A stretch of DNA of 35,887 bases from Chiloscyllium plagiosum (taxonomy: Eukaryota): assembly GCF_004010195.1 (NCBI RefSeq), contig NC_057749.1, positions 17,744,203 to 17,780,089 on the forward strand, given 5' to 3'. Position 1 is the stretch's first letter. Each line of letters starts with the position of its first letter. The notes beneath the pieces are model-generated. The model saw nothing but the letters and a program-made list of their open reading frames with translations. It was not told the origin of the DNA and ran no database searches. The position numbers and the translations under genes were made by a program. Shown piece after piece: positions 1-34,974 of the stretch.

Positions 1-194
1 GTGTGGGCGCAAGTTTTGCATTTCTTGCGGTTGCAGGGGAAGGTGCTGGGAGTGGCGGTTGGGTTGGTGGGGGGTGTGGACCTGACGAGGGAGTCAGGGA
101 GGGAGTGGTCTTTTTGGAACGCTGATAGGGGAGGGGAGGGAAATATATCCTTGGTGGTGGGGTCCGTTTGGAGGTGGTGGAAATGACGACGGAT
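1..194 (-). mobile_element. Penelope-like element ORF fragment (linker between RT and GIY-YIG endonuclease)
   Basis: Minus-strand translation IRRHFHHLQTDPTTKDIFPSPPLSAFQKDHSLPDSLVRSTPPTNPTATPSTFPCNRKKCKTCAH resembles the PLE linker with its CxxxxCxxC knuckle; continues off the window edge. Confidence 0.75.
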
Positions 195-256
195 TTTATT
201 GACTATGATTGGGGTTGTCAGCCTGCGCCAATCAGTGAGCCCTGGATGACGGATAT

Positions 257-2570
257 AAACAGGGGAAGAGGTAGGCGCCGCAGGGAGTGGAGTGCATCAT
301 TTCTCCCTCCAACTCTATTTTGATTTAGTCCCTACCCTCCCCTTCACTGTTTTGATCACACAGCACTGTCCTTTGATGTGAAGGGCAGTGCTTGTCACTG
401 GCCACCCGGGTGTTTTCCTATCTTCCTGGTGGTGGAAATTGAATAAAGATTGGTGCACTTTGTGTCTTTCACTGTGTCTCCCACCTGCACACACACACCA
501 TGGGTGCTGGGGATAAAATAAGCACTACCGCACTTAGGTGGTAGTGTGGGGGTTAAATTTAAAAAAGAAAAAAAAAGAAAAAGAAAAAAAATAAATAAAT
601 AAAAAGGAGTATCTTCTCCCTCCAATTCTATTTTGATTTAGTCCCTACCCTCCCCTTCACTGTTAAAAAAAAGGAAAAAAAAAGAAGAATAAAAAAAAAT
701 AATAATAAATAAACAGGGGAAGAGGTAGGCGCCGCAGGGAGTGGAGTGCATCATTTCTCCCTCCAACTCTATTTTGATTTAGTCCCTACCCACCCCTTCA
801 CTGTTTTGATCACACAGCACTGCCCTCTGATGTGAAGGNNNNNNNNNNNNNNNNNNNNNNNNNNNNNNNNNNNNNNNNNNNNNNNNNNNNNNNNNNNNNN
901 NNNNNNNNNNNNNNNNNNNNNNNNNNNNNAATAAATAAAAAAAAATAAAAAAAATACACAGGAGGGAGCACTTTGTGTCTTTCACTGAAAAAAAAAACAG
1001 GGGAAGAGGTGGGCGCCGCATGGAGTGGAGTGCATCATTTCTCCCTCCAACTCTATTTTGATTTAGTCCCTACCCTCCCCTTCACTGTTTTGATCACACA
1101 GCACTGTCCCTTGATGTAAAGGGCAGTGTTTGTCACTGGCCACCCAGGTGTTTTCCTATCTTCCTGGTGGTGGAAATTGAATAAAGATTCGTGCACTTTG
1201 TGTCTTCCACTGTGTCTCACACCTGCACACACACACACCATGGGTGCTGGGGAAAAAAAAAATAAGCACTAAAAAAAATAAATAAAATAAACAGGGGAAG
1301 AGGTGGGTGCCGCAGGGAGTGGAATGCATCATTTCTCCCTCCAACTCTATTTTGATTTAGTCCCTACCCTCCCCTTCACTGTTTTGATCACACAGCACTG
1401 TCCCTTGATGTGAAGGGCAGTGTTTGTCACTGGCCACCCAGGTGTTTTCCTATCTTCCTGGTGGTGGAAATTGAATAAAGATTTGTGCACTTTGTGTCTT
1501 TCACTGTGTCTCACACCTGCACACACACACCATGGGTGCTGGGGAAAAAATAAGCATTACCGCACTTAGGTGGTAGTGTGGGGGTTAAATTTTTTTAAAA
1601 AAGAAAAGAAAAAAAAAGAAAAAAAACTTAACCAGGGATTGGTGGGCGCCGCAGGGAGTGGAGTGCAAGAAGAAAAAAAAATAAACAGGGGAAGAGGTGG
1701 GTGCCGCAGGGAGTGGAGTGCATCATTTCTCCCTCCAACTCTATTTTGATTTAGTCCCTACCCTCCCCCTCACTGTTTTGATCACACAGCACTGCCCTTT
1801 AATAGATAGAGTAGACAGTCAGAAACTTTTTCCCCGGGTACAACAGAGTGTTACAAGGGGACATAAATTTAAGGTGAAGGGTGGAAGGTATAGGGGAGAT
1901 GTCAGGGGTGGGTTCTTTACCCAGAGAGTGGTGGGGGCATGGAATGCGCTGCCCGTGGGAGTGGTAGAGTCGGAATCATTGGCGACCTTTAAGCGGCATT
2001 TGGATAGGTACATGGATGGGTACTTAATCTAGGTTAGAAGTTCGGCACAACATCGTGGGCCGAAGGGCCTGTTCTGTGCTGTATTGTTCTATGTTCTATG
2101 TTTGTCACTGGCCACCCGGGTGTTTTCCTATCTTCCTGGTGGTGGAAGTTGAATAAAGATTCGTGCACCTTGTGTCTCTCACTGTGTCTCACACCTGCAC
2201 ACACACACCATGGGTGCTGGGGCAAAAATAAGCACTACCGTGGTTAGGCGGGAGTGTGGGGGTTTTAAAAAATAAAAATAAAAAGATAAAAAAGAAAAAA
2301 ATAAACATAAAAAAAGGGAATGAGGTGGGCTCCGCGGGGTATGGAGTGTTTTATCTCCCCCTCTAATTCTGTTTTGATTTAATCCCTATTCCCCCCCCAC
2401 CCCTTTCACTGTTTTGATCACTTCGGCATTGCCCTCTGGGAAGGGCACTGCTTGTCTCTGGACACTCGGGTGTTTCCTTTCTTCCTGGTGGTGGAATGTG
2501 ACTCATGTTTTCTGCACTAGTTGTTTCTTCGCTGTGTCCTATACCTACACACACACATGCACACTATATA
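257..2570 (+). mobile_element. Head-to-tail array of Tx1-clade non-LTR retrotransposon 3' ends (about 300-bp units plus shorter pieces, each A-tailed)
   Basis: Units start at about 257, 606, 709, 958, 995, 1288, 1630, 1682 and 2316. Most begin AAACAGGGGAAGAGGT(A/G)GG and encode a terminal peptide RWAPQGVECIISPSNSILI*; complete units end GGTAGTGTGGGGGTT plus an A-rich tail. The same 3' end is linked to a Tx1-like ORF2 at 13561-14195. Confidence 0.8.
1801..2100 (+). mobile_element. CR1 LINE 3' end nested in a Tx1 unit
   Basis: Peptide IDRVDSQKLFPRVQQSVTRGHKFKVKGGRYRGDVRGGFFTQRVVGAWNALP (CR1 ORF2 C-terminus) and a (GTTCTAT)n-type tail. Confidence 0.9.
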
Positions 2571-2700
2571 TAAAACCAGGAGATTAGAATCTCCTCAGTT
2601 GAAGACTGACTCCGAGCTGGCAAAAAAAAAATGTAAATAGGATTTTGTGTAACCAGGAGGTTCCGAATCTCCTCAGTTCAGGGGACTGACTCTGAGCTGG

Positions 2701-4393
2701 CTGCTGTTACAGTCAGTGTGTTACTGTTGGTTTCTACTTCTCTTTTTTTTGGAGGGGGAAACCTGATGCCTGAATTATTTAGTCAGTTTGTTAACTGCCA
2801 TTCCTCTTTTTTTTTTTCTTCTTTTTTAACTGCCATTCCTCTTAGTGAGGACTGATTGTTAAACTCCTGATGCACATCATGTGTTTCAGGTGAAACTCAG
2901 TTCTCATTAGGGGACTGTTGTTTCACTGGCTGGTTATAGCCTGTGTGTTACTCTTTTCTCTCCTTTTACTTTTGAGAAAAGGACAATGTGGATTTTTGGT
3001 AGCCTTTGGACTCTAGTTTTCTTTGTCCTTTCTTGTATGTGTCTTCACTTTTTATTGGTGTTTGGACTGAGCCCTTGTGGAAGACATACATTTCACCAGA
3101 GGAGCTGTTCCTATGGGGAGGCCTAGCCCTCTGAAGATTGAACACCTGTGTGTGTGCTGGGAGGTGAGCAGTTGCTGTATCCTGGAGTTTGGCACACAGA
3201 CCTCTCCTTCAGGAGTGGATCAAACCCCTGCGAGTTAATTGCACCTGTACTATGTTCCTGTGAGTGGGCCTGGTTTTCCAAGGCTGGGCCAGGGCTCCAT
3301 GGAGACTGACTGCCTGTGTGCTGTGGGATGTGCATTTGCTGCCTTCAGGAGTGGACTCTGCCCTTGGTTGTGGACTCTGTTTTTAGCAACAGACTCTGCT
3401 GTTTGGAGTGGACCCCATTTCTGACAATGCACATTGTATACTGGAGTGGACTCTTCCTGGAAATGGATTCTATATTTTGAAGACTGTATAGAGTTGGACT
3501 GTGTACCAGAAAGGACTCTGTTTTTTGATAATTAACTGTATTGTGGTGTTTCCTGGGTCTATCACTTGCACTGTCTTGTGTGTCCCTGGGTCTGGTAGGC
3601 CTTACTGTGAGCTGGGAGGCTCATGGGTCGTCCTGAAAGCTGTCACCCCGAGAGCCGGAGGGTGGGTAGGCCATCCTGTGAACCTGAAGGTTGGTAGGCT
3701 GTCCTGAAAGCTGGTGGGTGGTATGCCACCCTGATGCCAGTCCCCCAAGAGCCAGATGGTGGGTAGGCTGTTCTAAGCGCTATCGTCCTAAGAAGGGGTA
3801 TTCGGGACGGGCTGTCCTAAAGGTGTGTCAGAGCAGCTGAGAGCCAGAAAGTGCGTAGGGGTGGGCTGAGATCCAGAAGGCTTGTGGGCTACCCTGCAAG
3901 CTGTCATCCCAGGGAAGGAGATGGGCTGTCCTAGAGGTGGCTGGATGGTGTACCAGGATAGCCCATTGGCTGGATGGTGCATCGGGGTGGGTGAGAGCCC
4001 AATGGTACATAGGGGCAGACCGAGAGCCAGAAGGCAGGTAGCCGTCCTGACTGCTGTCACCCCGGGCGGGTACCGGGGCAGGCTGCCCTAGAGGTGGTCG
4101 AAAGGTGTGTCAGGGCAGACCGAGAACTGGAAGGGGCATGGGGTGGACTGGGAGCGGGAAGGTGCGTGGGGGCGGGCTGCCTTAGAGTGGTCGGAAGGTG
4201 GGAGGGATGGGGTCTTGCTGGGTCTGTATTGTATGCACTGTTTATGTAACTGGATTAGCTTTTTATGTACAAATGTCGCTGTCTTTTATATGTGGAACTG
4301 GGATTTGAGGTTTGTCCTCATCTCCCTGTAAACTGGTTGAACGGTAGGGTTTGGAGCCTAGCTTTGCTGCTCTTCTCCCTTGTATATAATTAT
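2701..4393 (+). other. Unclassified 1.7-kb insert inside the LTR, bounded by 125-bp direct repeats
   Basis: 2576-2700 and 4394-4518 are near-identical. The interior has recurring GGAGTGGACTC motifs (about 3210-3500), degenerate GC-rich repeats (GGCTGTCCT(A/G).../CCGAGAGCC, about 3620-4200) and a T-rich end. Confidence 0.5.
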
Positions 4394-4632
4394 CCAGGAG
4401 ATTAAAATCTCCTCAGTTAAAGACTGACTCCAAGCTGGCCAAAAAAAAATGTAAATAGGATTATGTGTAACCAGGAGGTTCTGAATCTCCTCAGGTTAGG
4501 GGACTGACTCTGAGCTGGTATACAGTGCATGTGTAAATAAAGGGAGACTTGGTGATGGGATACCAGCCTCTGTGCAATTATTTCATTTCATATCCTGGAT
4601 TTCCCCAAAGTCTTTATATGTAAGGATGATAT

Positions 4633-5440: not shown

Positions 5441-5696
5441 AAGGTAGATTGTAATATTTCTTAACCAGCTCTGTCAACTCTTGGAAAGTTTTAGTGTCTG
5501 TTGCTTCTGAAAAAGTTAAGCCCCTTATAACAGAGAATGCTGTTGGTTCACAAGCAGTCAGAAGGGTTACTCATTGTTTTTCATCTACCGCAATGTCACT
5601 TGCCCAGAAAAAAAATATACGCCATTCTTTCCACAAACTGGGCCCAGTCTTCAACAGATTGTTCAAACGACTCAAGCTTCCCAAATAAAGGGCTGA
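5441..5696 (-). mobile_element. Degenerate Gypsy-type gag N-terminal fragment
   Basis: Minus strand reads PLFGKLESFEQSVEDWAQFVERMAY, then after a frameshift DIAVDEKQ*VTLLTACEPTAFSVIRGLTFSEATDTKTFQELTELVKKYY; this resembles fish Gypsy gag starts. Confidence 0.7.
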
Positions 5697-5939
5697 CCCC
5701 AACTTCAAGATGATTGCTTACAAAGAGAGATTCAGCAGACAACAAGTAGCTGATTGGTCTGTTAATGATAAACACTTGTTGATGACAAAGACTTTGATCT
5801 CCAGCATCTGCAGACCTCACTTTCTCCTCCCAAATAAAGGGCTGACCCCAACTCCAAGATGATTGCTTACAAAGAGAGATTCAGCAGACAACAAGTAGCT
5901 GATTGGTCTGTTAATGATAAACACTTGTTGATGACAAAG
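5681..5939. repeat. 110-bp direct duplication flanking a 39-bp Penelope-derived terminal fragment
   Basis: 5681-5790 equals 5830-5939 with one visible mismatch. The spacer 5791-5829 (...GATCTCCAGCATCTGCAGACCTCACTTTCTCCTC) is the reverse complement of 28621-28654. Confidence 0.9.
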
Positions 5940-7364
5940 GCCTTCTGCCTGGCAACATCCACGTGATTGGCTGGCAGGTAGCTGAACAGCTTGTGGGTGT
6001 GAATATTTTGGGCAGAAGCCAATCGGACGTCCAGACAGGAAGAGGCTATTTATGTTGGGCATAAAAACGCCTCAAACCTCAAAGGAAGCCAGTTTATATT
6101 CTCCTATTGGCTGCTGCAAGCTGTGGCTCTTGACTCAAGTTGGTTTGGTTTGAAAAATAATTTGAGAATAAAACTGACTTCGAGGATGTTCTACCAAATA
6201 ACACAAGTTCTCCAAGTTTTTTGAGGAAAAAAATGACTTCGAGAGAAGTGGATAATGCCTAGTAGTTCTGAGAGGATGTTTATCTCTTGATTAAATTCCA
6301 AGGCAGTGTTAATGGGTGTTTAGTGAGGTATTGTTTGTGACTGCCTGTACTCAGACCAGCTGCTCACATTGGTTCGAATACACCACAGATCAGAATAAAA
6401 TACAATCATCTTCCAGGGGATGAGTCTATTGAAATGAAAAACCACAGATTAAAAATTGAACTGGTTTAAATTTGTTAGATTGGGTTTAAGGCGAAAGTTT
6501 ATTGTTTAAAATAAATCTCCTACTTGTTCCACGTACCTATTTAATCATTATTGTGTGTGCTGGCTTTGTTTTAGTTGGTAGAGATTCCATTAACATTTCA
6601 AATTCACACGGATGATCTGCTACTTGTTTTCTTACCATTGATTCAGCTGGCTTCTATTCAGCCAGATCCCAATGACTATCTAACTTGTCCAGTATTCCCA
6701 GAATTGGGATCCTGTATTAGTGGAAGTTTTGAGATCGAGCTGTGCTCTCCATGTCTAGGTATCTCGACTTGGTTTTGCCACTAGTCCGGGGGGGTGGGTG
6801 AAGAGAAAATAAGGCAAACTTAAACCATTCTGTGGCATTTCCATCTCCTGCTTTGGATTTTCCCAACACCCGGTGGGCATAGAGAATGACAAAGCAGCTG
6901 GTGAGGTCAGACTGGGAGCTGTTGAGTCTGCACAGGATTCCCATACACCGAATGGATCGGGAGGTCAGGGATCCCTGTGCACCGAATGGATCGGGAGTGG
7001 GAGATGAAGCCAGAGAGCACAGCTATTTTTGGTATCTCCAAAGTGTAGACCTGTCAGGTGCTGTATAAATCTTGCCAGGTGAGGGAGAATTGAGGATTGC
7101 TTCCTGTTCAGTTTTCAGTGAGTGCTTGGTGTCAGTCGCATGGTCAGAAAGCTCTCTTGGTATTGTCCTGTTGATTGCAGCTCGACACAGTGCTGAGACC
7201 TCCTCTCTCTCCGATACTGACCAAATCACTGTCCAATTTCCTGCGAATCAATCAGCTTATCCAAGATGTCTTTGTCTTCTGAAATACTTGGGTAAATATT
7301 CCATGTTAAGGAGCAATTTAAAGTCTGTGTTGTCACACAGTATTACAATGAATGGAGAGAGAGT

Positions 7365-13325: not shown

Positions 13326-13560
13326 GAAACACCTCATTGAGGACATAACCAGCAGAGTTACTAGTTTAACCAAGATAATCAGATTAGTTGAGGATGGTGA
13401 TAATCCTGAATGTTAGGATTGTAATGCTCTCATGGCTTTTGCTGGAGTAATATATCCCAAACTGCTTCATGGCTGCATGATCAAACTAAACTTAACAAGA
13501 CAATATTCAGGCAGGTAGCCAAAAGCTTGGCTGCTGAGATAGATTTTGAGCATTGTTTTA

Positions 13561-14195
13561 TTTTTTTTTCTTTTTTTGGAAAACACCCGAGTGGCCAGTG
13601 ACAAACACTGCCCTTAACACTCCTTTTTTTTTTCTTTAACCCCCACACTACCACCTAAGTGCGGTAGTGCTTATTTTATCCCCAGCACCCATGGTGTGTG
13701 TGTGCAGGTGGGAGACACAGTGGAAGACACAAAGTGCACCAATCTTTATTCNNNNNNNNNNNNNNNNNNNNNNNNNNNNNNNNNNNNNNNNNNNNNNNNN
13801 NNNNNNNNNNNNNNNNNNNNNNNNNNNNNNNNNNNNNNNNNNNNNNNNNNNNNNNNNNNNNNNNNNNNNNNNNNNNNNNNNNNNNNNNNNNNNNNNNNNN
13901 NNNNNNNNNNNNNNNNNNNNNNNNNNNNNNNNNNNNNNNNNNNNNNNNNNNNNNNNNNNNNNNNNNNNNNNNNNNNNNNNNNNNNNNNNNNNNNNNNNNA
14001 TGGCCAGTTTGGCCAGGCCCAGGGGCAGACCCACGAGGAGGTCTTCAGACCTGCCCTCCTTCCTCCGTACCGGGTGCCCAAAGATCAGGAGCGTGGGACT
14101 GAAGTGCAGCCAAAAATAGAGGAGAAGGTTTTTAAGGAAATCAAAAAGGGAGTGCAAACGCCCACACCCAATATAGACGTGGTCCACGGACTCCA
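13561..14195 (-). mobile_element. 5'-truncated Tx1-clade non-LTR retrotransposon (ORF2 C-terminus, 3' UTR, poly(A)) with a second short unit
   Basis: Peptide ESVDHVYIGCGRLHSLFDFLKNLLLYFWLHFSPTLLIFGHP...LGLAKLA (end of the L1/Tx1 CCHC knuckle). The 3' UTR matches the 257-2570 units. A 15-bp TSD TTGAGCATTGTTTTA at 13546-13560 and 14196-14210 ties both sides of the N-gap together. Confidence 0.85.
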
Positions 14196-15064
14196 TTGAG
14201 CATTGTTTTAAAGGAAGAAAGAAAGATTGTGATAGGCTGGAAGGTTTAAGGAAGCAATTCCAGGGCTTAGGAATTCAGCAGCTAAAGGCGCTGTCACCAT
14301 TAATGGTGGAGCCGTGTAAAACTGTGGGGGCACTCGAGTGACCCAGCAATGTAAAACTGGGGGAGGTGTTTGAGTGACCAGAATTAGAGGAACACAGATA
14401 TCTCCAGATGGTTGTAGAGTTGGAGGAGGTTACAGAGAAAGGGCTGAGGCCATTGGGGGATTTGATAAGAAGGTTAATGGTATTAAAATGGGTGGGATGT
14501 TAATGTGCACTGGGGAGACATGTGAACCTGGTTCAAGTTGGGGCATGGCAGAGTTTTGGATCTGTTCAGCTTTACAGTGTAGGAGTGCAGTTAGGAGACA
14601 ACTGGATCCACTTACAAACGTACTTTGTTAATTTTCCAATCTATAAATGCTCAGTAATGATAGAGATTTTCTCTCCTTTGTGGGATCTGATCTCAGTGAC
14701 ACCTTTAGTTTGCAAATTTGGCAGTTGTTTGTATGTGCAAATTGTCAATCTACATTGCATTTCTAAAGGGTTTCTGCCCTCTGGGACTAGCTGTCATTTC
14801 TCGTTATTGCAATTTCTGACACATAATCTATCTCAGAGACATCCTTAATAGAGTCAGTAGGAAACAATACTGTGTCTGTTGTTGCCTGCAGTATATTTCT
14901 GGGGGTATTTGGCACAGATGGTGGCAGACTTGTTTCAAATATTATACCTGGCCTGACGATTTCCCAGGAGAACATTAAGCATCCAGCATTTTTGACGAGA
15001 CATGAACAGAAGTATGGTTTTATTGAGAGAATGTCTTTCCTGGCACCAGTTCATGCCATGAAAT

Positions 15065-16629: not shown

Positions 16630-17972
16630 AGATGGTGACACCTTGCAAAATGTCCAGATTACAGAGGAGGAAGTGCTGGATGTCTTGAAACGCATAAAGG
16701 TGGATAAATCCCCAGGACCTGATCAGGTGTACCCTAGAACTCTGTGGGAAGCTAGAGAAGTGATTGCTGGGCCTCTTACTGAGATATTTGTATCATCGAT
16801 AGTCACAGATAAGGTGCTGGGAGACTGGAGGTTAGCTAACGTGGTGCCACTGTTTAAGAAGGATGGTAAGGACAAACCAGGGAACTATAGACCGGTGAGC
16901 CTGACATCGGTGGTGGGCGAGTTGTTGGAGGGAATCCTGAGGGACAGGATGTACATGTATTTGGAAAGGCAAGGACTGATTCGGGATAGTCAACATGGCT
17001 TTGTGCATGGGAAATCATATCTCACAAACTTGATTGAGTTTTTTGAAGAAGTAANNNNNNNNNNNNNNNNNNNNNNNNNNNNNNNNNNNNNNNNNNNNNN
17101 NNNNNNNNNNNNNNNNNNNNNNNNNNNNNNNNNNNNNNNNNNNNNNNNNNNNNNNNNNNNNNNNNNNNNNNNNNNNNNNNNNNNNNNNNNNNNNNNNNNN
17201 NNNNNNNNNNNNNNNNNNNNNNNNNNNNNNNNNNNNNNNNNNNNNNNNNNNNNNNNNNNNNNNNNNNNNNNNNNNNNNNNNNNNNNNNNNNNNNNNNNNN
17301 NNNNNNNNNNNNNNNNNNNNNNNNNNNNNNNNNNNNNNNNNNNNNNNNNNNNNNNNNNNNNNNNNNNNNNNNNNNNNNNNNNNNNNNNNNNNNNNNNNNN
17401 NNNNNNNNNNNNNNNNNNNNNNNNNNNNNNNNNNNNNNNNNNNNNNNNNNNNNNNNNNNNNNNNNNNNNNNNNNNNNNNNNNNNNNNNNNNNNNNNNNNN
17501 NNNNNNNNNNNNNNNNNNNNNNNNNNNNNNNNNNNNNNNNNNNNNNNNNNNNNNNNNNNNNNNNNNNNNNNNNNNNNNNNNNNNNNNNNNNNNNNNNNNN
17601 NNNNNNNNNNNNNNNNNNNNNNNNNNNNNNNNNNNNNNNNNNNNNNNNNNNNNNNNNNNNNNNNNNNNNNNNNNNNNNNNNNNNNNNNNNNNNNNNNNNN
17701 NNNNNNNNNNNNNNNNNNNNNNNNNNNNNNNNNNNNNNNNNNNNNNNNNNNNNNNNNNNNNNNNNNNNNNNNNNNNNNAGGAAGTGGTGGAGGCTGGTAC
17801 AATTGCAACATTTAAGAGGCATTTGGATGGGTATATGAATAGGAAGGATTTGGAGGGATATGGGCAGGGTGCTGGCAGGTGGGACTAGATTGGGTTGGGA
17901 TATCTGGTCGGCATGGACGGGTTGGTCTGAAGGGTCTATTTCCACGCTGTACATCTCTATGACTCTACGACT
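16630..17972 (+). mobile_element. CR1 LINE ORF2 (RT region) through to the 3' end, spanning an N-gap
   Basis: Peptide KSPGPDQVYPRTLWE...DWRLANVVPLFKK...NYRPVSLTSVVGELLE...SQHGF...LTNLIEFFEEV; after the gap a CR1 3' UTR ends CTCTATGACTCTA. Confidence 0.92.
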
Positions 17973-21512: not shown

Positions 21513-21724
21513 AGCGTTGGGTGTCTCTGGAGAAAGCGACCCAAATGGGGAGAAGGATGAGAAGGATCAGGTGGATGTGTAACACAGACTTCACTCTGCG
21601 TGAGTGCTACGTTTTTCCTGTTTAACCTGAATTTCCTTCCTGTAGTTAACTGATGAATGTGGAATGAAGAACCCCTGCTTCAGGATGTTTGGTCAGTCCC
21701 TATGTTCAAATCTCGTGTTACAAG

Positions 21725-23791
21725 TGAAATAATTCCACAGAGGCCTGAATCCTGTTACCGAGTCCCCTTTTATTTTCATGGGGAGAGTCCTTGACACTGA
21801 TCCAGCTCCCTCAGACCCAGCTCTGAGTGAGCAGAACCTCTGACACTCCTGTTTTTAAATTTTTTTTATTTTTCTTCACAAATCCCCAGTTTTTTTTTTT
21901 AACCCCCACACTACCGCCTAACCGCAGTAGTGCTTATTTTACCCCCAGCACCCATGGTGTGTGTGTGCAGGTGTGAGACACAATGACAGACACAAGCTGC
22001 ACAACCCTTTATTCAATTTCCACCACCAGGAAGATAGGAAAACACCCGGGTGGCCAGTGACAAACACTGCCCTTCACATCACATCAAAGGGGCAATGCTG
22101 ACACTCCTGTTTTTGTTTTACTCCTGTTTGTTTGTTTATTTATTAATTAATTAATTAATTTATTTATTTATTTTCTTACACTCCTGATTTTTTTTTAAGG
22201 GCAATGCTGAGACTCCTGTTCATTTTTTTTTCTTTTTTTTATATTAACCCCCACACTACCGCCTAACTGCGGTAGTGCTTATTTTTCCCCAGTACCCATG
22301 GTGTGTGTGTGCAGGTGTGAGACACANNNNNNNNNNNNNNNNNNNNNNNNNNNNNNNNNNNNNNNNNNNNNNNNNNNNNNNNNNNNNNNNNNNNNNNNNN
22401 NNNNNNNNNNNNNNNNNNNNNNNNNNNNNNNNNNNNNNNNNNNNNNNNNNNNNNNNNNNNNNNNNNNNNNNNNNNNNNNNNNNNNNNNNNNNNNNNNNNN
22501 NNNNNNNNNNNNNNNNNNNNNNNNNNNNNNNNNNNNNNNNNNNNNNNNNNNNNNNNNNNNNNNNNNNNNNNNNNNNNNNNNNNNNNNNNNNNNNNNNNNN
22601 NNNNNNNNNNNNNNNNNNNNNNNNNNNNNNNNNNNNNNNNNNNNNNNNNNNNNNNNNNNNNNNNNNNNNNNNNNNNNNNNNNNNNNNNNNNNNNNNNNNN
22701 NNNNNNNNNNNNNNNNNNNNNNNNNNNNNNNNNNNNNNNNNNNNNNNNNNNNNNNNNNNNNNNNNNNNNNNNNNNNNNNNNNNNNNNNNNNNNNNNNNNN
22801 NNNNNNNNNNNNNGGATCTTTCTATGCATCCTATTAATTCACATTCCAAAATTACTGGTTATACTCTTTCAAGTCTGTCCTAGTCTTGCTTATCTCTAAG
22901 GACTGCTTGAATTCTGTTATTCATTGTGGTCCATGTGCTATCTCTCTGAAATTCTGTTCTTCCTCTTACATTTTCAACTGTCCCAATTATAAATTTAAAA
23001 CATACAAAAGACAGTTGATTTGAACTAGCTTCTGTAAGAGTAGTCGTATTAATTTCCCAATATCAAGTTAGTTGTACTTTTTAATTAATAAGTTATGAAC
23101 AATCTATTTCATTCAGGACATGCCAGGCCTGGGTCTAGTTAACATTTACATCTAGATTTAAATGTTTATTCCCTAATGCTTCTATTATACTTTAGTTATA
23201 TATGTATCTATAATTATGTTGAAATCTATTTCTATGATTATCTGAAGAATCTTTAACGAAAACCTATTTCTTAATATTGTGAATAACGTCAAAGAAATAA
23301 CTGATTACTACAAAATAACCTTAGCTGTTGTTTCATAGCTGTTTAATGAGTTAGGCTGACTGGTTTATGGGTTGAGATTTACACCCCTTGTTCGAACTGG
23401 TGATGCTAACGAATGGGACAACACCCTTTCATTAATGAGGCTAGAATTAATCACATGTCGTATTTTAATGAACTTGTGTCTTATCCTTAGATATCCTCTT
23501 AGCAAAGCATCTCGGAAAGTCACTTGTAGGGTCTCCTATTTAGCTTGTTCAAAGGTACCATTAAGTTTCGCTTAAATTTTTTTTTCCACCACCAGGAAGA
23601 TAGGAAAACACCCGGGTGGCCAGTGACAAACACTGCCCTTCACATCAAAGGGCAGTGCTGTGTGATCAAAACAGTGAGGAGGAGGGTAGGGACATCACTC
23701 CTGTTTATAGCTGTCAACCAGGGCTCCCTGATTGGATCAGGTTAACAGCCTAATCATACTGTATGAGGCTGACCTCATTCCAATCGCTACA
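21725..23791 (-). mobile_element. Solo LTR (about 225 bp net) split at its TATA box by nested insertions
   Basis: Minus strand starts TGTAGCG (23791), then CCAATCAGGGAGCCCTGG, TATAAACAGGAGTG and AATAAA, and ends ATTATTTCA (21725). A 5-bp TSD ACAAG lies at 21720-21724 and 23792-23796. Confidence 0.88.
21855..23695 (-). mobile_element. Second stack of Tx1-clade 3' ends and A-rich tails inside the LTR
   Basis: Units at about 21890-22098, 22222-22326 and 23577-23695. The target motif ACTCCTG(TTT) repeats at 21841-21854, 22099-22112, 22120-22129, 22178-22186, 22208-22220 and 23696-23706. Confidence 0.85.
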
Positions 23792-28619: not shown

Positions 28620-28824
28620 CGAGGAGAAAGTGAGGTCTGCAGATGCTGGAGATCAGAGCTGAAAATGTGTTGCTGGAAAAGCACTGCAGGTCAGGCAGCA
28701 TCCAGGGAACAGGAGAATCGACATTTCGGGCATAAGCCCTTCTTGGGCTTATGCCCGAAACGTCGATTCTCCTGTTCCCTGGATGCTGCCTGACCTGCTG
28801 CGCTGTTCCAGCAACACATTTTCA
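28620..28824. mobile_element. Fold-back Penelope-derived element
   Basis: Near-perfect inverted arms at about 28660-28739 and 28745-28824; 13-bp TSD TCTCAGTCCTAAT at 28607-28619 and 28825-28837. Confidence 0.85.
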
Positions 28825-28955
28825 TCTCAGTCCTAATGCCAGGCCACTACTTTACTGAAAATAAATTTTCCCAAAAGTTTGTTGCAACCTTTTCTAAACG
28901 CTATTACTATCATTGCTACTCTGAACTTCCTTCAGTGAGATTCTAAATTTTTTTT

Positions 28956-29203: not shown

Positions 29204-30279
29204 CCAATTCATTTCAGATTTGAAACATCAACTTAGCTTCTCTCTCCACAGGCACGGCCAGACCTGCTGAGTTATCTCCAACACTTTCTGCTTTTATTTC
29301 AGATTTCCAGTTTCTGCAGCATTTCATTTTTATCCCACTCTATTGTCACCCTGGTTTAGAACTCTAAATCTTTCACCTTAATTCCTCAGCCTTTCGGTCC
29401 AAAATCCTCACCGCTTCCCCAGGGTTCATTCATTTAAATCAATCTCAATAAAATTTATTTCTCTTGCCCCCAACTAATCCTCTCATAGAACCCAATGCAG
29501 CTGAAAAACACTGAAAGACTGTTATAGATTTGAAAAACTTGAAATTATAAAAGCAAAAATGAGATTCTTTGCAAATAGTCAGAAGAAACATTTATTCAGT
29601 ATGTAAGACAGCAGTCAGATGCTTTTCATCAGAAAGTGACAGAAATTAGATGAAGAATTCTCATTGTATCTGATGGTAATGACAACAGTTATTACCCTCG
29701 AGAGCTGCTACTTCACAATACCTTACCAGGCCTGATGTTTCAAATGGAACCAAATGCAAATTGCAGAACACAGTTAATTTATGATCAATCAGCAGATTTT
29801 ACAAACAGAGAGACACCTTGAAGTGGATGTAACAATTTAAATTGTTCCTAAATGTTACAAGGGGGATGTAATATATGAGACTATATCAAATAGGAATTGA
29901 GGGGAAGCTGGTCAGAGAATCCCAATAAGTTCCAACCCAGAATCACCCCATTCTGAACATCATCGACATCAGCCTGCATTTCTATAATCACCGAGAAATG
30001 CTGGGAATCTGAAATTGAAACAAAACGCTGGAGAAACTCAGCAGGTCCAGCAACATCCATGGAGAGAGAAATTGTGTTAAAGTTTCAAGTCCAATGACTC
30101 TTCTCCAGAACTGATAGATTTTCTATAAAACTGCTTCACAGGTTTCTCTATATTGACTTGTCTCAGTCCTCCCTCTCTCTGTCTCTGTCTCTCTCTGTCT
30201 CTATCTCTCTCTCTCCCTGACACTGACTGGTTTCTCCCTCTTTCCTTCCCCCCATTCCTCGACCTCCCCCCAACTCTCA

Positions 30280-30749
30280 GGGTGATATCTGTACACTGAC
30301 TGATGTCTGTCAGTCCCCTTCTCTCTTAGGGAGATATCTGTACACTGACCGGTGTCTCTCAGTCCCCTCACTCACTCAGGGAGGTATCTGTACACTGACT
30401 GGGGTCTCTCAGTTCCCTCACTCACTCAGGGAGGTATCTGTACACTGACTGGTGTCTCTCAGTCCCCCACTCACTCAGGGAGGTATCTGTACACTGACTG
30501 GGGTCTCTCAGTTCCCTCTCTCTCTCAGGGAGGTATCTGTACACTGACTGGTGTCTCTCAGTCCCCTCACTCACTCAGGGAGGTATCTGTACACTGACTG
30601 GGGTCGCTCAGTTCCCTCACTCTCTCAGGGAGATATCTGTACACTGACCAGTGTTTCTCAGTCCCCTCACTCACTCAAGGAGGTATCTGTACACTGACTG
30701 GGGTCTCTCAGTTCCCTCACTCTCTCAGGGGGATATCTGTACACTGACT
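30280..30749. repeat. 50-bp minisatellite, about 9 units
   Basis: Unit GG(T/G)GTCTCTCAGT(C/T)CCCTCACTCACTCAGGGAGGTATCTGTACACTGACT; a degenerate continuation follows at about 32184-32265. Confidence 0.95.
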
Positions 30750-32183
30750 GTGAAACTGAATAATTACTTCACATCAGTCTTCATGGTGGAAGACATGAGT
30801 AATATCCCAAACATTCAGGAGAGTGAAGGGGCAGAGCTGAGTATGGTGGCCATCAGCAAGGAGAAGGTGCTAGAAAACCTGAATGGCCTGTAGGTGGATA
30901 AATCACCTGGACCAGATGGACTACATCCCAGAGTTTAAAAGGAGATAGCTAAGGAGATAATGGAAGCATTAGTGGTGATCTTTCAGGAATTGCTAAAATC
31001 AGGGACAGTCCCAGAGGACTGGAAAATTGGTAATGTGACACCCCTGCTTCAAATGGGAGTAAGGTAAAGATGGAAAATTACAGACTGAGTAGCCTAACCT
31101 CAGTTGTGGGTAAGATCCTGAAATCCATTGTGAAGGATGAGATTTCTGAATACTTGGAGGTGTATGGCAAAATAGGGCAAAGTCAGCTTGGTTTCAGTAA
31201 GCTGACAGGTTAGGAGTGTGGGCAAAGAAGTGGCAGATGGAATAGAACATGACCTCACACTTTACCATGTTGTATTCCATCTGTGTGAGGTCATGTTCTT
31301 TGGTCAGAAGAATAGAAGCATGGACTATGTTCTAAATGGGGAGAAAATTCAGAAGTCTGAAGTGCAAAGAGACTTGGGAGTGCTAATCCAGGACTCTGTC
31401 AAAGTAAACCTGCAGGTTGAATCAGTAGTGGGGAAGGCAAATGCAATGTTGGCATTTATTTTGCGAGGACTTGAATATAAAAGCAGAGGTGTATTTCTGA
31501 GGCTCTATAATCTCTGGTCAGACCACATTTAGAGTATTGTGTGCAGTTTTGGGCCCCATATCTCAGGAAGGATATACTGGCCCTGGAGTGTGTTCAGAGG
31601 AGGTTCACAAGAATGGTTCCAGCAATGAGAAGTTTAACATATGAGGAATGTTTGAGGATTTATACTCGGTGGAGTTTAGAAGGATGAGAGGGAATCTAAT
31701 GGAAACATACAGAACACTGAATGGCCTGGACAGAGTAGATGTTGGGAAGATGTTTCCATTCTTTAACTTAAAAATGTGTTGCTGGAAAAACACAGCAGGT
31801 CAGGCAGCATCAAAGGAGCAGGAGAATTGACGTTTCCGGCATGAGCCCTTCTTCAGGAATCATCCTCCAAGATGTTTCCATTGGCAGGAGAGACTAAGAC
31901 CTGGGGCACAGCCTCAGAATAAAGGGAAGACCTTTTAGAACGGAGATAAAGAGAAACGTCTTCAGCCAGAGAGCGGTGAATCTATGGAATTCATTGCCAA
32001 AGGCCGCTATGGAGGCCAGGTGATTGAGTATATTTAACACTGAGATAGATAGGTTCTTGATTGTAAAAGGGATCACGGTTATGTGGTGAAAGCGGGGTGA
32101 AATTTATCAGCCTTGATTGAATGGCGGAGCAGACTTGATGGGCTGAATAGCCTAATCTCTGCTCCAATGTCTTTTGGTCTTAT
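30750..32183 (+). mobile_element. Decayed CR1 LINE (ORF2 with internal RT deletion, stops, 3' UTR)
   Basis: LNNYFTSVF...KSPGPDGLHPRV, then a jump at about 31200 to KKWQME, QRDLGV, KANAMLAFI and RRMRGNLMETYR; ends TCTTTTGGTCTTAT. Confidence 0.9.
31761..31868 (-). mobile_element. Short Penelope-derived insert within CR1
   Basis: Matches 28660-28745; minus CCTGAAGAAGGGCTCATGCCGGAAACGTC; 14-bp TSD AAGATGTTTCCATT at 31747-31760 and 31869-31882. Confidence 0.85.
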
Positions 32184-33119: not shown

Positions 33120-33510
33120 GCGTGGAGGTGCCAGTGTTAGACTGGGGTGGACTCCTTGGTAAAAACCAGGGCTGCAGATGCTGGAAACCAGAGTCTAGAC
33201 TAGAGTGCTGCTGGAAAGGCACAGCAGGTCAGGCAGCATCCGAGGAGCAGGACAATCGACGTTTCGGGCAAAAGCCGTGAGGAAATATTTCAATCATTCC
33301 TGATGAAGGGCTTTTGCCCAAAACGTCGATTTTCCTGCTCCTCGGATGCTGCCTGAACTGCAGTGCATTTCCAGCAGCACTCTAGTCTAGACTCTGGGTT
33401 GGACTCCTTACCTGATGGTTAACTGATGAAGGAGCAGTGCTCTGAAAGCTAGTGCTTCCAAATAAACCAGTTGGACTATAATCTGCCATTGTGTGATTAT
33501 TACCTTTGTT
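33120..33510. mobile_element. Nested Penelope-derived elements: a fold-back element (33158-33399) inside a second family
   Basis: Inverted arms at about 33188-33276 and 33309-33397; TGGACTCCTT duplicated at 33148-33157 and 33400-33409; the outer parts match the 8114-8304 family. Confidence 0.8.
33420..33455 (+). ncRNA. Minimal hammerhead-ribozyme-like motif
   Basis: CTGATGA-A-GGAGC-AGT-GCTCT-GAAA-GC-TA: conserved core boxes around a paired stem II with a minimal stem III, as known for Penelope-like elements. Activity is untested. Confidence 0.55.
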
Positions 33511-33538: not shown

Positions 33539-34974
33539 TGTGGATCAGTATCAGGGACCAATCACTGTGGATCAGTATCAGTGACCAATCACTGTGGATC
33601 AGTATCAGTGACCAATCGCTGTGGATCAGTAACAGTGACCAATCATTGTGGATCAGTAACAGGGACCAATCATTGTGGATCAGTATCAGTGACCAATCAC
33701 TGTGGATCAATATCAGTGACCAATCGCTGTGGATCAGTATCAGGGACCAATCCCTGTGGATCAGTAACAGGGACCAATCGCTGTGGATCAGTATCAGTGA
33801 CCAATCGCTGTGGATCAGTAACAGTGACCAATCGCTGTGGATCAGTATCAGTGACCAATCGATGTGGATCAGTATCAGTGACCAATCACTGTGGATAAAT
33901 ATCAGTGACCAATCACTGTGGATCAGTAACAGTGACCAATCGCTGTGGATCAGTATCAGTGACCAATCACTGTGGATCAGTATCAGTGACCAATCACTGT
34001 GGATCAGTAACAGTGACCAATCACTGTGGATCAGTAACAGGGACCAATCGCTGTGGATCAGTAACAGGGACCAATCGCTGTGGATCAGTATCAGGGACCA
34101 ATCCCTGTGGATCAGTAACAGGGACCAATCACTGTGGATCAGTAACAGGGACCAATCACTGTGGATCAGTAACAGTGACCAATCGCTGTGGATCAGTAAC
34201 AGTGACCAATCACTGTGGATCGGTAACAGTGACCAATCGCTGTGGATCCGTATCAGTGACCAATCCCTGTGGATCAGTATCGGTGACCAATCGCTGTGGA
34301 TCAGTATCGGTGACCAATCGCTGTGGATCAGTATCAGTGACCAATCACTGTGGATCAGTAACAGTGACCAATCGCTGTTGATCAGTATCAGTGACCAATC
34401 GTTGTGGATCATTATCAGTGACCAATCGCTGTGGATCAGTATCGGTGACCAATCGCTGTTGATCAGTAACAGTGACCAATCGCTGTGGATCATTATCAGT
34501 GACCAATCGCTGTGGATCAGTAACAGTGACCAATCGTGTGGATCATTATCAGTGACCAATCGCTGTTGATCAGTAACAGTGACCAATCGCTGTGGATCAG
34601 TAACATGACCAATCACTGTGGATCAGTATCAGTGACCAATCGCTGTGGATCAGTATCAGTGACCAATCACTGTGGATCATTATCAGTGACCAATCGCTGT
34701 TGATCAGTAACAGTGACCAATCACTGTGGATCAGTATCAGTGACCAATCGCTGTGGATCAGTAACAGTGACCAATCCCTGTGGATCAGTATCAGTGACCA
34801 ATAGCTGTGGATCAGTATCAGTGACCAATCCCTGTGGATCATTATCAGTGACCAATCGCTGTTGATTAGTAACAGTGACCAATCGTTATGGATCAGTATC
34901 AGTGACCAATCGCTGTGGAGCAGTATCAGTGACCAATCGCTGTGGATCAGTATCAGTGACCAATCATTGTTGAT
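33539..34974. repeat. 27-bp minisatellite, about 53 units
   Basis: Unit TGTGGATCAGTA(T/A)CAG(T/G)GACCAATC(A/G/C)C in direct tandem with no unique spacers. Confidence 0.97.

What the first reader, a model, noticed from the sequence alone, without database searches (positions are those of the whole stretch)
257..1800. Array units share one 5' junction but differ in poly(A) position
Seen: units at about 257, 709, 995, 1288 and 1682 all begin ACAGGGGAAGAGGT(A/G)GG(C/T)GCCGCA, about 20 codons before the ORF2 stop. Tails start at different points across the array (about 556, 664, 987, 1270, 1590, 1667) and differ in sequence. Simple DNA tandem duplication would copy tails, and random 5' truncation would vary the starts. 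Inference: a short RNA of about 300 nt (a SINE-like derivative, or a transcript of the array itself) is repeatedly reverse-transcribed back into its own regenerated target, so the array self-elongates.
Basis: partly seen in the sequence, partly recalled or inferred. Interest (0 to 1): 0.7.

Follow-up and report, generated by a model that had tools for sequence, protein, structure and literature searches.

The report
Stacked LINE tails sharing one junction
Nine tail-end pieces of a frog-Tx1-like jumping gene have piled up at one landing spot, and five start at the same base, most likely because each new copy was cut to length against the copy already there, not because a new short RNA element exists; a small twist on known stacking behaviour.

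Summary
The array is real, but the description needs correcting. Five of eight units in 257-1800 share the head. Its first 8 letters are target DNA from an LTR-like repeat; LINE sequence starts at 267, and elsewhere runs on upstream into ORF2. Three of the six listed tails belong to units with other heads, and two mark the same normal end; only one shared-head unit is tailed early. The family is Tx1-clade. In public DNA contigs other copies start at 17 different places, and one poly(A) RNA run shows no pile of starts, so a SINE is not supported. Units carry alleles of different genome-wide lineages (12 of 25 variable columns), which argues for separate insertions. Best reading (0.55): only 11 target bases precede the LINE, fewer than the 15-24-base duplications seen nearby, so each new cut falls inside the resident copy and captures incoming cDNA at the same base. 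Rivals: local DNA duplication (0.2), re-inserted array transcript (0.13). The scan noted this LTR targeting before on other DNA of this genome; 5'-ward stacking (R1) and homology-fixed junctions (R2) are published.

The parts
1..194 (-). Unrelated high-copy repeat that cuts off the 5' part of the host repeat (reads like a Penelope-type ORF; label recalled, no Pfam hit)
   Evidence: open frame; no family; contigs leave the window at 185/194
195..266 (+). Left part of the LTR-like host repeat: CCAAT at 228, TATAAA at 254-259, target remnant TAAACAGGGGA 256-266
   Evidence: 81% to 23758-23701; aligned with the second split copy; contigs of other loci match up to 263-266 and then jump into the LINE elsewhere
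267..554 (+). U1: LINE 3' end (last 19 ORF2 codons, 3' UTR), shared head, near-private 273A (TGG to TAG), normal end; tail 555-602
   Evidence: 1 of 114 differences from the dispersed copy at 13637-13751
603..709 (+). U2: other head (AGGAGT linker), 53-nt LINE piece ending at 664, tail; possibly carried in with U1 as a 3' read-through
   Evidence: read-through is inference from the 13.5-kb insertion
710..838 (+). U3: shared head with 273A; runs into assembly gap 839-929
930..993 (+). Tail, then U4: other head, 20-nt LINE piece (968-987) and short A tail
994..1287 (+). U5: shared head, tailed early at 1270 (equivalent of 526)
1288..1627 (+). U6: shared head, normal end at 1586, tail
1628..1681 (+). 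U7: other head (AACCAGGGATT), 27-nt LINE piece from the equivalent of 270, tail
1682..1799 (+). U8, 5' part: shared head
1800..2099 (+). 3' end of another LINE inserted in U8 (reads like CR1; label recalled, no Pfam hit)
   Evidence: ORF 1685-2032; 75% to 17780-17843; no family
2100..2310 (+). LINE 3' UTR of an older lineage (probably the rest of U8), normal end at about 2266, tail
   Evidence: shares 533G and 539C with dispersed copies at 22.0 and 22.3 kb
2311..2560 (+). U9: oldest unit, about 19% diverged, starts near the equivalent of 268-269
2565..4586 (+). Right side of the host repeat: 136-nt duplication (2567-2700 / 4383-4518) that begins at the same TATA-CCAGG site, a 1.7-kb insert between the copies, then AATAAA and a ..TTTCA end at 4586
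21720..23780 (-). Comparison locus: second copy of the host repeat split at the same site by the same LINE family with other starts; one junction (target plus 10 LINE bases) is present twice, at 22220 and 22112
13546..14210 (-). Comparison locus: longer copy of the same LINE plus a second short unit behind a GGAGTGT linker, both inside one 15-nt target duplication, outside the host repeat

Best explanation
A Tx1-clade LINE that prefers the site TAAACAGG beside the TATA box of an LTR-like repeat (SHOWN in part: 2 of 2 host copies in the window are split there) inserted here many times from different source copies (SHOWN by alleles; the number of events is inferred). One early insertion was 5'-truncated at 267 and left only 11 target bases (256-266) in front of it (SHOWN). 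The family duplicates 15-24 bases of target (SHOWN at 3 places in the window). So when the same site is cut again, the second-strand cut falls inside the resident LINE and the overhang ends in about 4-13 LINE bases (INFERRED). Any cDNA long enough to reach that point can pair with the overhang, helped by the chance likeness of target CAGGGGA to LINE CAGGGAG, and is truncated there (INFERRED; R2-type heteroduplex priming). The new unit gets the old junction and its nearby private bases, but a 3' part and tail from the incoming RNA, and the target is rebuilt at the left end. Other-headed short units are passengers from read-through of source arrays, or long duplications capped by a tail-only insert (INFERRED).
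For: Head 259-266 is target: LINE letters before 267 are ..GTTGTTCAGGG in 20 (X1) and 31 (X2) contigs and 112 RNA reads; other loci join the target at 263-266 to LINE positions 333, 423, 473, 482. Duplication lengths: 15 nt at 14210/13560, 17 nt at 22114/21856, 24 nt with 1 mismatch at 22220/22112, of which 10 nt are LINE: a second locus where a private junction is recopied with a new tail. Head alleles shared by near neighbours lie at offsets 18 (U1/U3; 273A, with G in 270528 of 271369 contig depth and 143 of 144 RNA reads) and 21 (U6/U8). Further 3', 12 of 25 variable columns match alleles listed for the whole family (binomial p 1e-4 at a generous 15% chance, 0.01 at 25%). U1 is 1 of 114 from the dispersed copy at 13.7 kb and shares its rare 481C (4-11%), but 4 of 114 from U6 and 11 of 114 from the 2100-2266 piece. 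Private changes rise left to right. Precedent: R1 inserts into the duplication at the 5' end of resident R1 (PMC2718515); cDNA/target pairing fixes R2 5' junctions (PMC3774820).
Against: Tails after U1 and U6 have the same run pattern, as do those after U2 and U7; U5 and U6 share 372C and 408A far beyond any short duplication. All three fit DNA duplication. The allele table was made against U1, so sites where U1 is rare are listed automatically (273 was left out; 481 and 391 were kept), and only 40 of 127 rows were shown. The 3' half of U3 is in a gap, so U1 as a copy of U3 cannot be excluded beyond base 126 (3 differences in 126 columns). The 2100-2266 piece may not belong to U8. No genome-wide set of arrays could be examined. 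The pairing step was not observed.
Confidence: 0.55

Rival explanations
1. One truncated insertion was multiplied at the DNA level (unequal exchange or slippage), possibly as a block U6-U7-U8 to U1-U2-U3, with later tail drift, a few new insertions and gene conversion from dispersed copies.
For: Identical junctions are the published sign of amplification of one event (PMC2718515 table legend; PMC5932611). Tail patterns pair U1 with U6 and U2 with U7. U5 and U6 share two alleles at 372 and 408. The site has also undergone a 136-nt duplication.
Against: 6 of 10 U1-U6 differences and 8 of 13 U1 vs 2100-2264 differences are family alleles; U1 is closer to a dispersed copy than to its neighbours. 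U2 and U7 are different, non-overlapping parts of the LINE. A tail starting GGTTAAATT also occurs at other loci (joints from 560), so that likeness may be a source trait.
Confidence: 0.2
2. A transcript of the array itself (driven by the host repeat's promoter or by read-through) is reverse-transcribed by Tx1 proteins back into the left-end target, carrying or re-pairing the junction, as R2 co-transcripts propagate junction variants.
For: A CCAAT/TATA pair lies just upstream. U1/U3 and U5/U6 are neighbours that share alleles. Read-through of arrays does get re-inserted: two units in one 15-nt duplication at 13.5-14.2 kb. Precedent for junction propagation through RNA: PMC3774820.
Against: A start 25-30 bases after TATA (textbook spacing, recalled) falls at about 280-290, behind the junction. 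Units do not form a simple copy-of-the-left-neighbour ladder (369, 452, 469, 481). In the one RNA run laid, 273A is in at most 1 of 144 reads, depth at 196-259 is at most 1, and no pile of starts was found; weak, since tissue is unknown and 2% of the run was read.
Confidence: 0.13
3. Part of the repetition is an assembly artefact: short-read gap filling duplicated or mixed units.
For: A 91-N gap sits inside the array and four more in the window. No listed contig piece spans even 100-560.
Against: Each of the five heads has its own upstream letters within 31 bases.
Confidence: 0.07
4. A genome-wide ~290-nt SINE-like derivative with a fixed 5' end, or a genome-wide truncation hotspot at 267-270, supplies the units.
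For: U7 and U9 start at 270 and about 268-269 with other linkers; a tail-to-269 joint is seen in one contig each of organisms A and B. Target and LINE look alike at this point, so a mild hotspot is likely.
Against: The shared head includes locus target bases. Shown joints give 17 different starts. A crude bound puts sequence matching 260-266 at 1-8% of the depth at 273 (summed contig depth is not copy number). Even a 10% hotspot gives p 0.005. No pol III head is present: the unit begins inside ORF2.
Confidence: 0.05

Closest known systems
Tandem R1 arrays of Drosophila (Stage and Eickbush 2009, PMC2718515; passages read)
   Same: Site-specific LINE inserts into the target duplication at the 5' end of a resident copy; copies are separated by target remnants; growth is 5'-ward.
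   Different: R1 targets 28S rDNA. In the passages read, 5' junctions vary at the end of a fixed 14-bp duplication, and identical junctions are put down to amplification of one event. Here identical truncated starts go with 3' parts of different lineages.
R2 elements with upstream 28S sequence on the RNA (Eickbush et al. 2013, PMC3774820; abstract part and passages read)
   Same: Pairing of cDNA with target DNA primes the second strand at a uniform point and can propagate an odd junction.
   Different: In R2 the homology is carried on the RNA by ribozyme cleavage upstream and gives full-length uniform ends. Here it would be supplied by the resident truncated copy on the DNA and would force a truncation.
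Crocodilian Tx1-Mar, Tx1-8_Crp, Tx1-4_AMi and SINEU-3 (Kojima 2015, PMC4494074; passages read)
   Same: Tx1-clade families that prefer other transposons, two of them LTR retrotransposons; tandem copies sandwiching a target duplication, read as sequential insertion.
   Different: No shared truncation point is described in the passages read (supplementary figures not seen). SINEU has snRNA-derived heads; this array has none.
Tx1L of Xenopus laevis (UniRef YTX2, P0008)
   Same: Nearest named protein: 41% over 99% of the 622-aa relative P0001, 25 of 50 identical to the window's ORF2 piece.
   Different: Targets the DNA transposon Tx1D (PMC4494074). No endonuclease or RT region of this family is present in the window.
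TE dimers by double insertion as seeds of satellites (McGurk and Barbash 2018, PMC5932611; passages read)
   Same: Repeated insertion at one site makes tail-to-internal tandems with target remnants between.
   Different: There distinct truncations mark independent events and expansion is by unequal exchange.

Membership tests
Tx1-clade non-LTR retrotransposon | ORF2 sequence related to Tx1L | tested here: met
   C-terminal piece 73% to P0001, P0001 41% to Tx1L ORF2 at E 1.5e-138, direct 25 of 50; the units' own 19 codons match P0001's last residues at E 0.007
Tx1-clade non-LTR retrotransposon | Placement in the Tx1 clade by RT-domain phylogeny | not testable with these tools
   no RT region of this family in the window; no genome held
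Tx1-clade non-LTR retrotransposon | Poly(A) tail and target-site duplication (TPRT marks) | tested here: met
   A tails in DNA and RNA at 551-557; 15-nt duplication
Target-specific Tx1 family (Kojima's rule: over 20% of flanks of one type) | Preferred insertion in one repeat | tested here: inconclusive
   2 of 3 loci in the window are in the host repeat at the same site, 1 is not; about 6 of the 10 shown go-back linkers are target-like by eye; no genome-wide count
LTR (host repeat) | CCAAT/TATA, AATAAA, CA end | tested here: met
   both copies
LTR (host repeat) | TG..CA ends with 4-6-bp duplication, or pairing with an internal gag-pol region | tested here: inconclusive
   no clean duplication seen by eye at the second copy; 5' end of this copy is cut off; 'Gypsy' comes only from earlier AI notes
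SINE | RNA-gene-derived head with internal pol III promoter | tested here: not met
   the unit is target remnant plus ORF2 end and 3' UTR, with nothing between; tRNA and Rfam scans were not run
SINE | Many dispersed copies with one fixed 5' end | tested here: not met
   17 different starts among the shown joints; most sequence at 267 runs upstream into ORF2; tables were truncated
SINE | A discrete short transcript | tested here: inconclusive
   none in one poly(A) single-cell run, 2% read, tissue unknown
Satellite amplified by unequal exchange | Units descend from one local unit and share tails and junctions | tested here: inconclusive
   junction shared, two tail pairs alike, but 3' alleles point to different family lineages

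The most novel reading that the evidence does not exclude
The array is a self-feeding locus: a truncated LINE end that landed just behind another element's TATA box borrows that promoter, and its ~280-nt transcript is reverse-transcribed by Tx1 proteins back into its own rebuilt junction, a SINE in the making that needs no head and grows at one spot.
Probability: 0.13. Interest if true: 0.6.

Novelty: new variant of a known kind. Interest (0 to 1): 0.3.

Why it matters
If the best reading holds, a resident truncated copy acts as a ruler that cuts later insertions to its own length. Identical 5' junctions in a tandem would then no longer prove DNA amplification, which is how they are read in R1 arrays, and equal-length units could arise by retrotransposition alone before any unequal exchange. 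Stacks of this family would give many natural replicates for testing how second-strand priming sets 5' truncation, the least understood step of LINE integration according to PMC3774820. The effect is a refinement within transposon biology, and no host function is indicated.

Tried and rejected
No whole genome is held, so no genome-wide census of starts. Pattern scans for more copies: metagenome contigs gave 1 hit, L001, a chance 20-mer in a bacterial gene (dropped); viral contigs 0 and 0; prokaryote genome contigs 0. Pfam found nothing in the 65-aa ORF2 piece or in the two neighbouring fragments. P0007 (13% query cover) was not used for naming. The look-up of sequencing runs: no RNA holder listed; the raw RNA run laid was added by species label. 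Only 4 of 24 listed runs were laid, on 100-560 only. PMC11702581 (passages) gave nothing on cDNA pairing with a resident copy; chimeric L1 insertions of that kind (Gilbert et al. 2005) are recalled, not seen. Literature searches for a shared truncation point in tandem insertions found no description; the library lacks most subscription papers and Repbase Reports, and no supplements were read (Kojima 2015 figs S3-S4 may bear on this). Earlier-findings searches by sequence and by words found nothing on the shared junction. Discrete alternative poly(A) signals were considered and set aside as the general cause: early ends are scattered (equivalents of 296, 351, 417, 437, 474, 526), and only 474 lies about 25-30 nt behind the UTR's AATAAA at 442. 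No tree was built: too few informative sites.

Full report
Observation. The 14-mer ACAGGGGAAGAGGT occurs five times in the window, at 259, 713, 997, 1291 and 1685, 19 codons before a stop. Five coincident starts are far beyond chance (p about 1e-8 for uniform starts, 0.005 even for a 10% hotspot). But the stretch 257-1800 holds eight LINE pieces, and a ninth, about 19% diverged one follows at 2311-2560. Tails at 556 and 1590 are the same normal end, which is also where poly(A) begins in most RNA loose ends shown (60, 101 and 224 reads at 551, 552, 557; 43 at 518). Of the five shared-head units three end normally, one early (1270), one in a gap. 'One head, many poly(A) sites' thus shrinks to one case in four readable units.

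What the unit is. A longer copy at 14.0-14.2 kb keeps 65 codons of ORF2; it is 73% identical to P0001, which is 41% identical over 99% of its length to Xenopus Tx1L ORF2 (E 1.5e-138; direct comparison 25 of 50). That copy's 3' part (13637-13751, across a 248-N gap) is the same 3' UTR as the units'. The family is therefore Tx1-like by sequence; RT phylogeny was not possible. Earlier notes call the genome a shark; I did not test that.

What the head is. Bases 204-263 match 23758-23701 (81%), and 4532-4588 match 21778-21722 (79%). Aligned, both loci are the same LTR-like repeat (CCAAT, TATAAA, AATAAA, CA end) split just after TATA by a pile of insertions. Laying four public runs on 100-560 (4 of 24 listed) fixes the boundary: sequence that matches from 267 continues upstream as ..GTTGTTCAGGG, that is ORF2, in 20 and 31 contigs of two DNA runs and 112 RNA reads; contigs from other loci follow the window up to 263-266 and then enter the LINE at 333, 423, 473 or 482. 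So 256-266 is target and the LINE starts at 267. One contig of another sample spans 165-284 (4 differences), so the left junction is real.

Private or genome-wide. The joints shown (15 of 58 rows, and 12 of 179 rows with letters between) give 17 different LINE starts: 269, 285, 308, 313, 329, 333, 339, 370, 381, 389, 423, 434, 439, 442, 473, 482, 515; about 6 of the 10 go-back linkers look like tail plus target remnant. None of the shown rows returns to 256-259, though this locus's own joints must be among the hidden rows. A crude subtraction bounds sequence matching 260-266 at 1-8% of the depth at 273 (the tool warns that summed depth is no copy number). In the RNA run depth is at most 1 over 196-259 against about 190 at 276-291, and no place of many starts was found. 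Stacking is thus a family habit and this junction is mostly local. Against a purely local origin: U7 and U9 start at 270 and about 268-269 with other linkers, one tail-to-269 joint occurs in both organisms A and B, and target CAGGGGA resembles LINE CAGGGAG, so a mild hotspot exists.

Where the units come from. If all units descended from one local copy, by DNA or by its RNA, their differences should be mostly new mutations. Instead 12 of 25 variable columns (273 left out) carry alleles that segregate in the whole family (p 1e-4 at 15% chance, 0.01 at 25%; 10 of 22 without CpG sites). U1 differs from the dispersed 13.7-kb copy at 1 of 114 bases and shares its rare 481C, but differs from U6 at 4 and from the 2100-2264 piece at 11; that piece shares 533G and 539C with copies at 22 kb. 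Caveats: the table was built against U1 and only 40 of 127 rows were shown; U3's 3' half is missing; the 2100 piece is separated from U8 by another LINE. In contrast, head alleles are shared by near neighbours: the near-private 273A (a stop codon) by U1 and U3 at offset 18, and 276T (9-12% in the family) by U6 and U8 at offset 21. Private changes rise from 0 in U1 to 2 in U5 and U6, 4 in the 2100 piece and 27 in U9, in line with growth at the left end.

Mechanism. Target duplications in the window measure 15 nt, 17 nt and 24 nt; in the last, at the second locus, the duplication runs 10 bases into the resident LINE and is followed by a new tail, a small independent case of a recopied junction. 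Here only 11 target bases precede the LINE. A cut 15-24 bases on therefore leaves an overhang that ends in LINE sequence, and a cDNA that reaches this point can pair with it and be truncated there. The product has the old head, a new body and a new tail, and the target is rebuilt on the left. These steps are inferred. Cited support: R1 elements stack by inserting into the duplication at the 5' end of resident copies (PMC2718515, passages); cDNA/target pairing makes uniform R2 junctions and is hypothesised for L1 and R1 (PMC3774820, passages); Tx1-8_Crp and Tx1-4_AMi prefer LTR retrotransposons and SINEU-3 forms tandems around a duplication (PMC4494074, passages). Short other-headed units are probably passengers: at 13.5-14.2 kb a long copy and a second unit behind a GGAGTGT linker, tailed early, sit inside one 15-nt duplication at a site outside the host repeat, which reads as a re-inserted read-through of a source array; U1 plus U2 has the same form.

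Results against this reading. The tails after U1 and U6 share a run pattern, as do those after U2 and U7, and U5 and U6 share two alleles more than 100 bases into the unit. These fit DNA duplication (0.2), and identical junctions are the published sign of it. Inherited source tails could explain the first point, since a tail starting GGTTAAATT occurs elsewhere. An array transcript (0.13) is not excluded by one RNA run of unknown tissue.

Novelty. The LTR targeting was noted at least six times on other DNA of this genome by the scan (unchecked AI notes, consistent with what I measured here) and has published parallels. I found no description of a resident truncated copy fixing the truncation point of later insertions (searches; open-licence library only, no supplements read), but it joins two published ideas. 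Verdict: new variant of a known kind, interest 0.3.

Noticed in passing
window 2567-2700 and 4383-4518: A 136-nt direct duplication (92%) starting at the same TATA-CCAGG site flanks a 1.7-kb insert with no frame of 100 aa; the duplicated piece itself holds a 47-51-nt internal repeat around a short A-rich insert. Looks like very long target duplications by an older, unidentified element at the same site.
   Followed up: partly
window 13546-14210 (-): Two LINE units with an LTR-target-like linker inside one 15-nt duplication, at a site outside the host repeat: likely 3' read-through of a source array; also shows that the family is not confined to the host repeat.
   Followed up: yes
window 21853-22245 (-): Several tail-only inserts between target remnants of 10-24 nt; one remnant (CTGGGGATTTGTG) resembles the other target variant, seen at 259-266.
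   Followed up: partly
window 22814-23582: About 770 nt of AT-rich sequence inside the second pile, with no other copy in the window.
   Followed up: no
window 1800-2099: 3' end of another LINE (CR1-like by recall) interrupts U8, with about 13-16 bases of the unit missing at the site.
   Followed up: partly
window 33539-34965: 27-nt minisatellite, about 53 copies, 91% matches.
   Followed up: no
window 30276-30750: 50-nt tandem repeat, 9.5 copies.
   Followed up: no
window 28656-28829 and 33185-33400: Head-to-head pairs of one short dispersed repeat forming near-perfect inverted repeats (84-92-nt arms, 5 and 32 nt apart); the scan has notes on similar Penelope-type ends in this genome.
   Followed up: no
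window 5679-5944: Direct duplication of 117 nt (97%), spacing 149.
   Followed up: no
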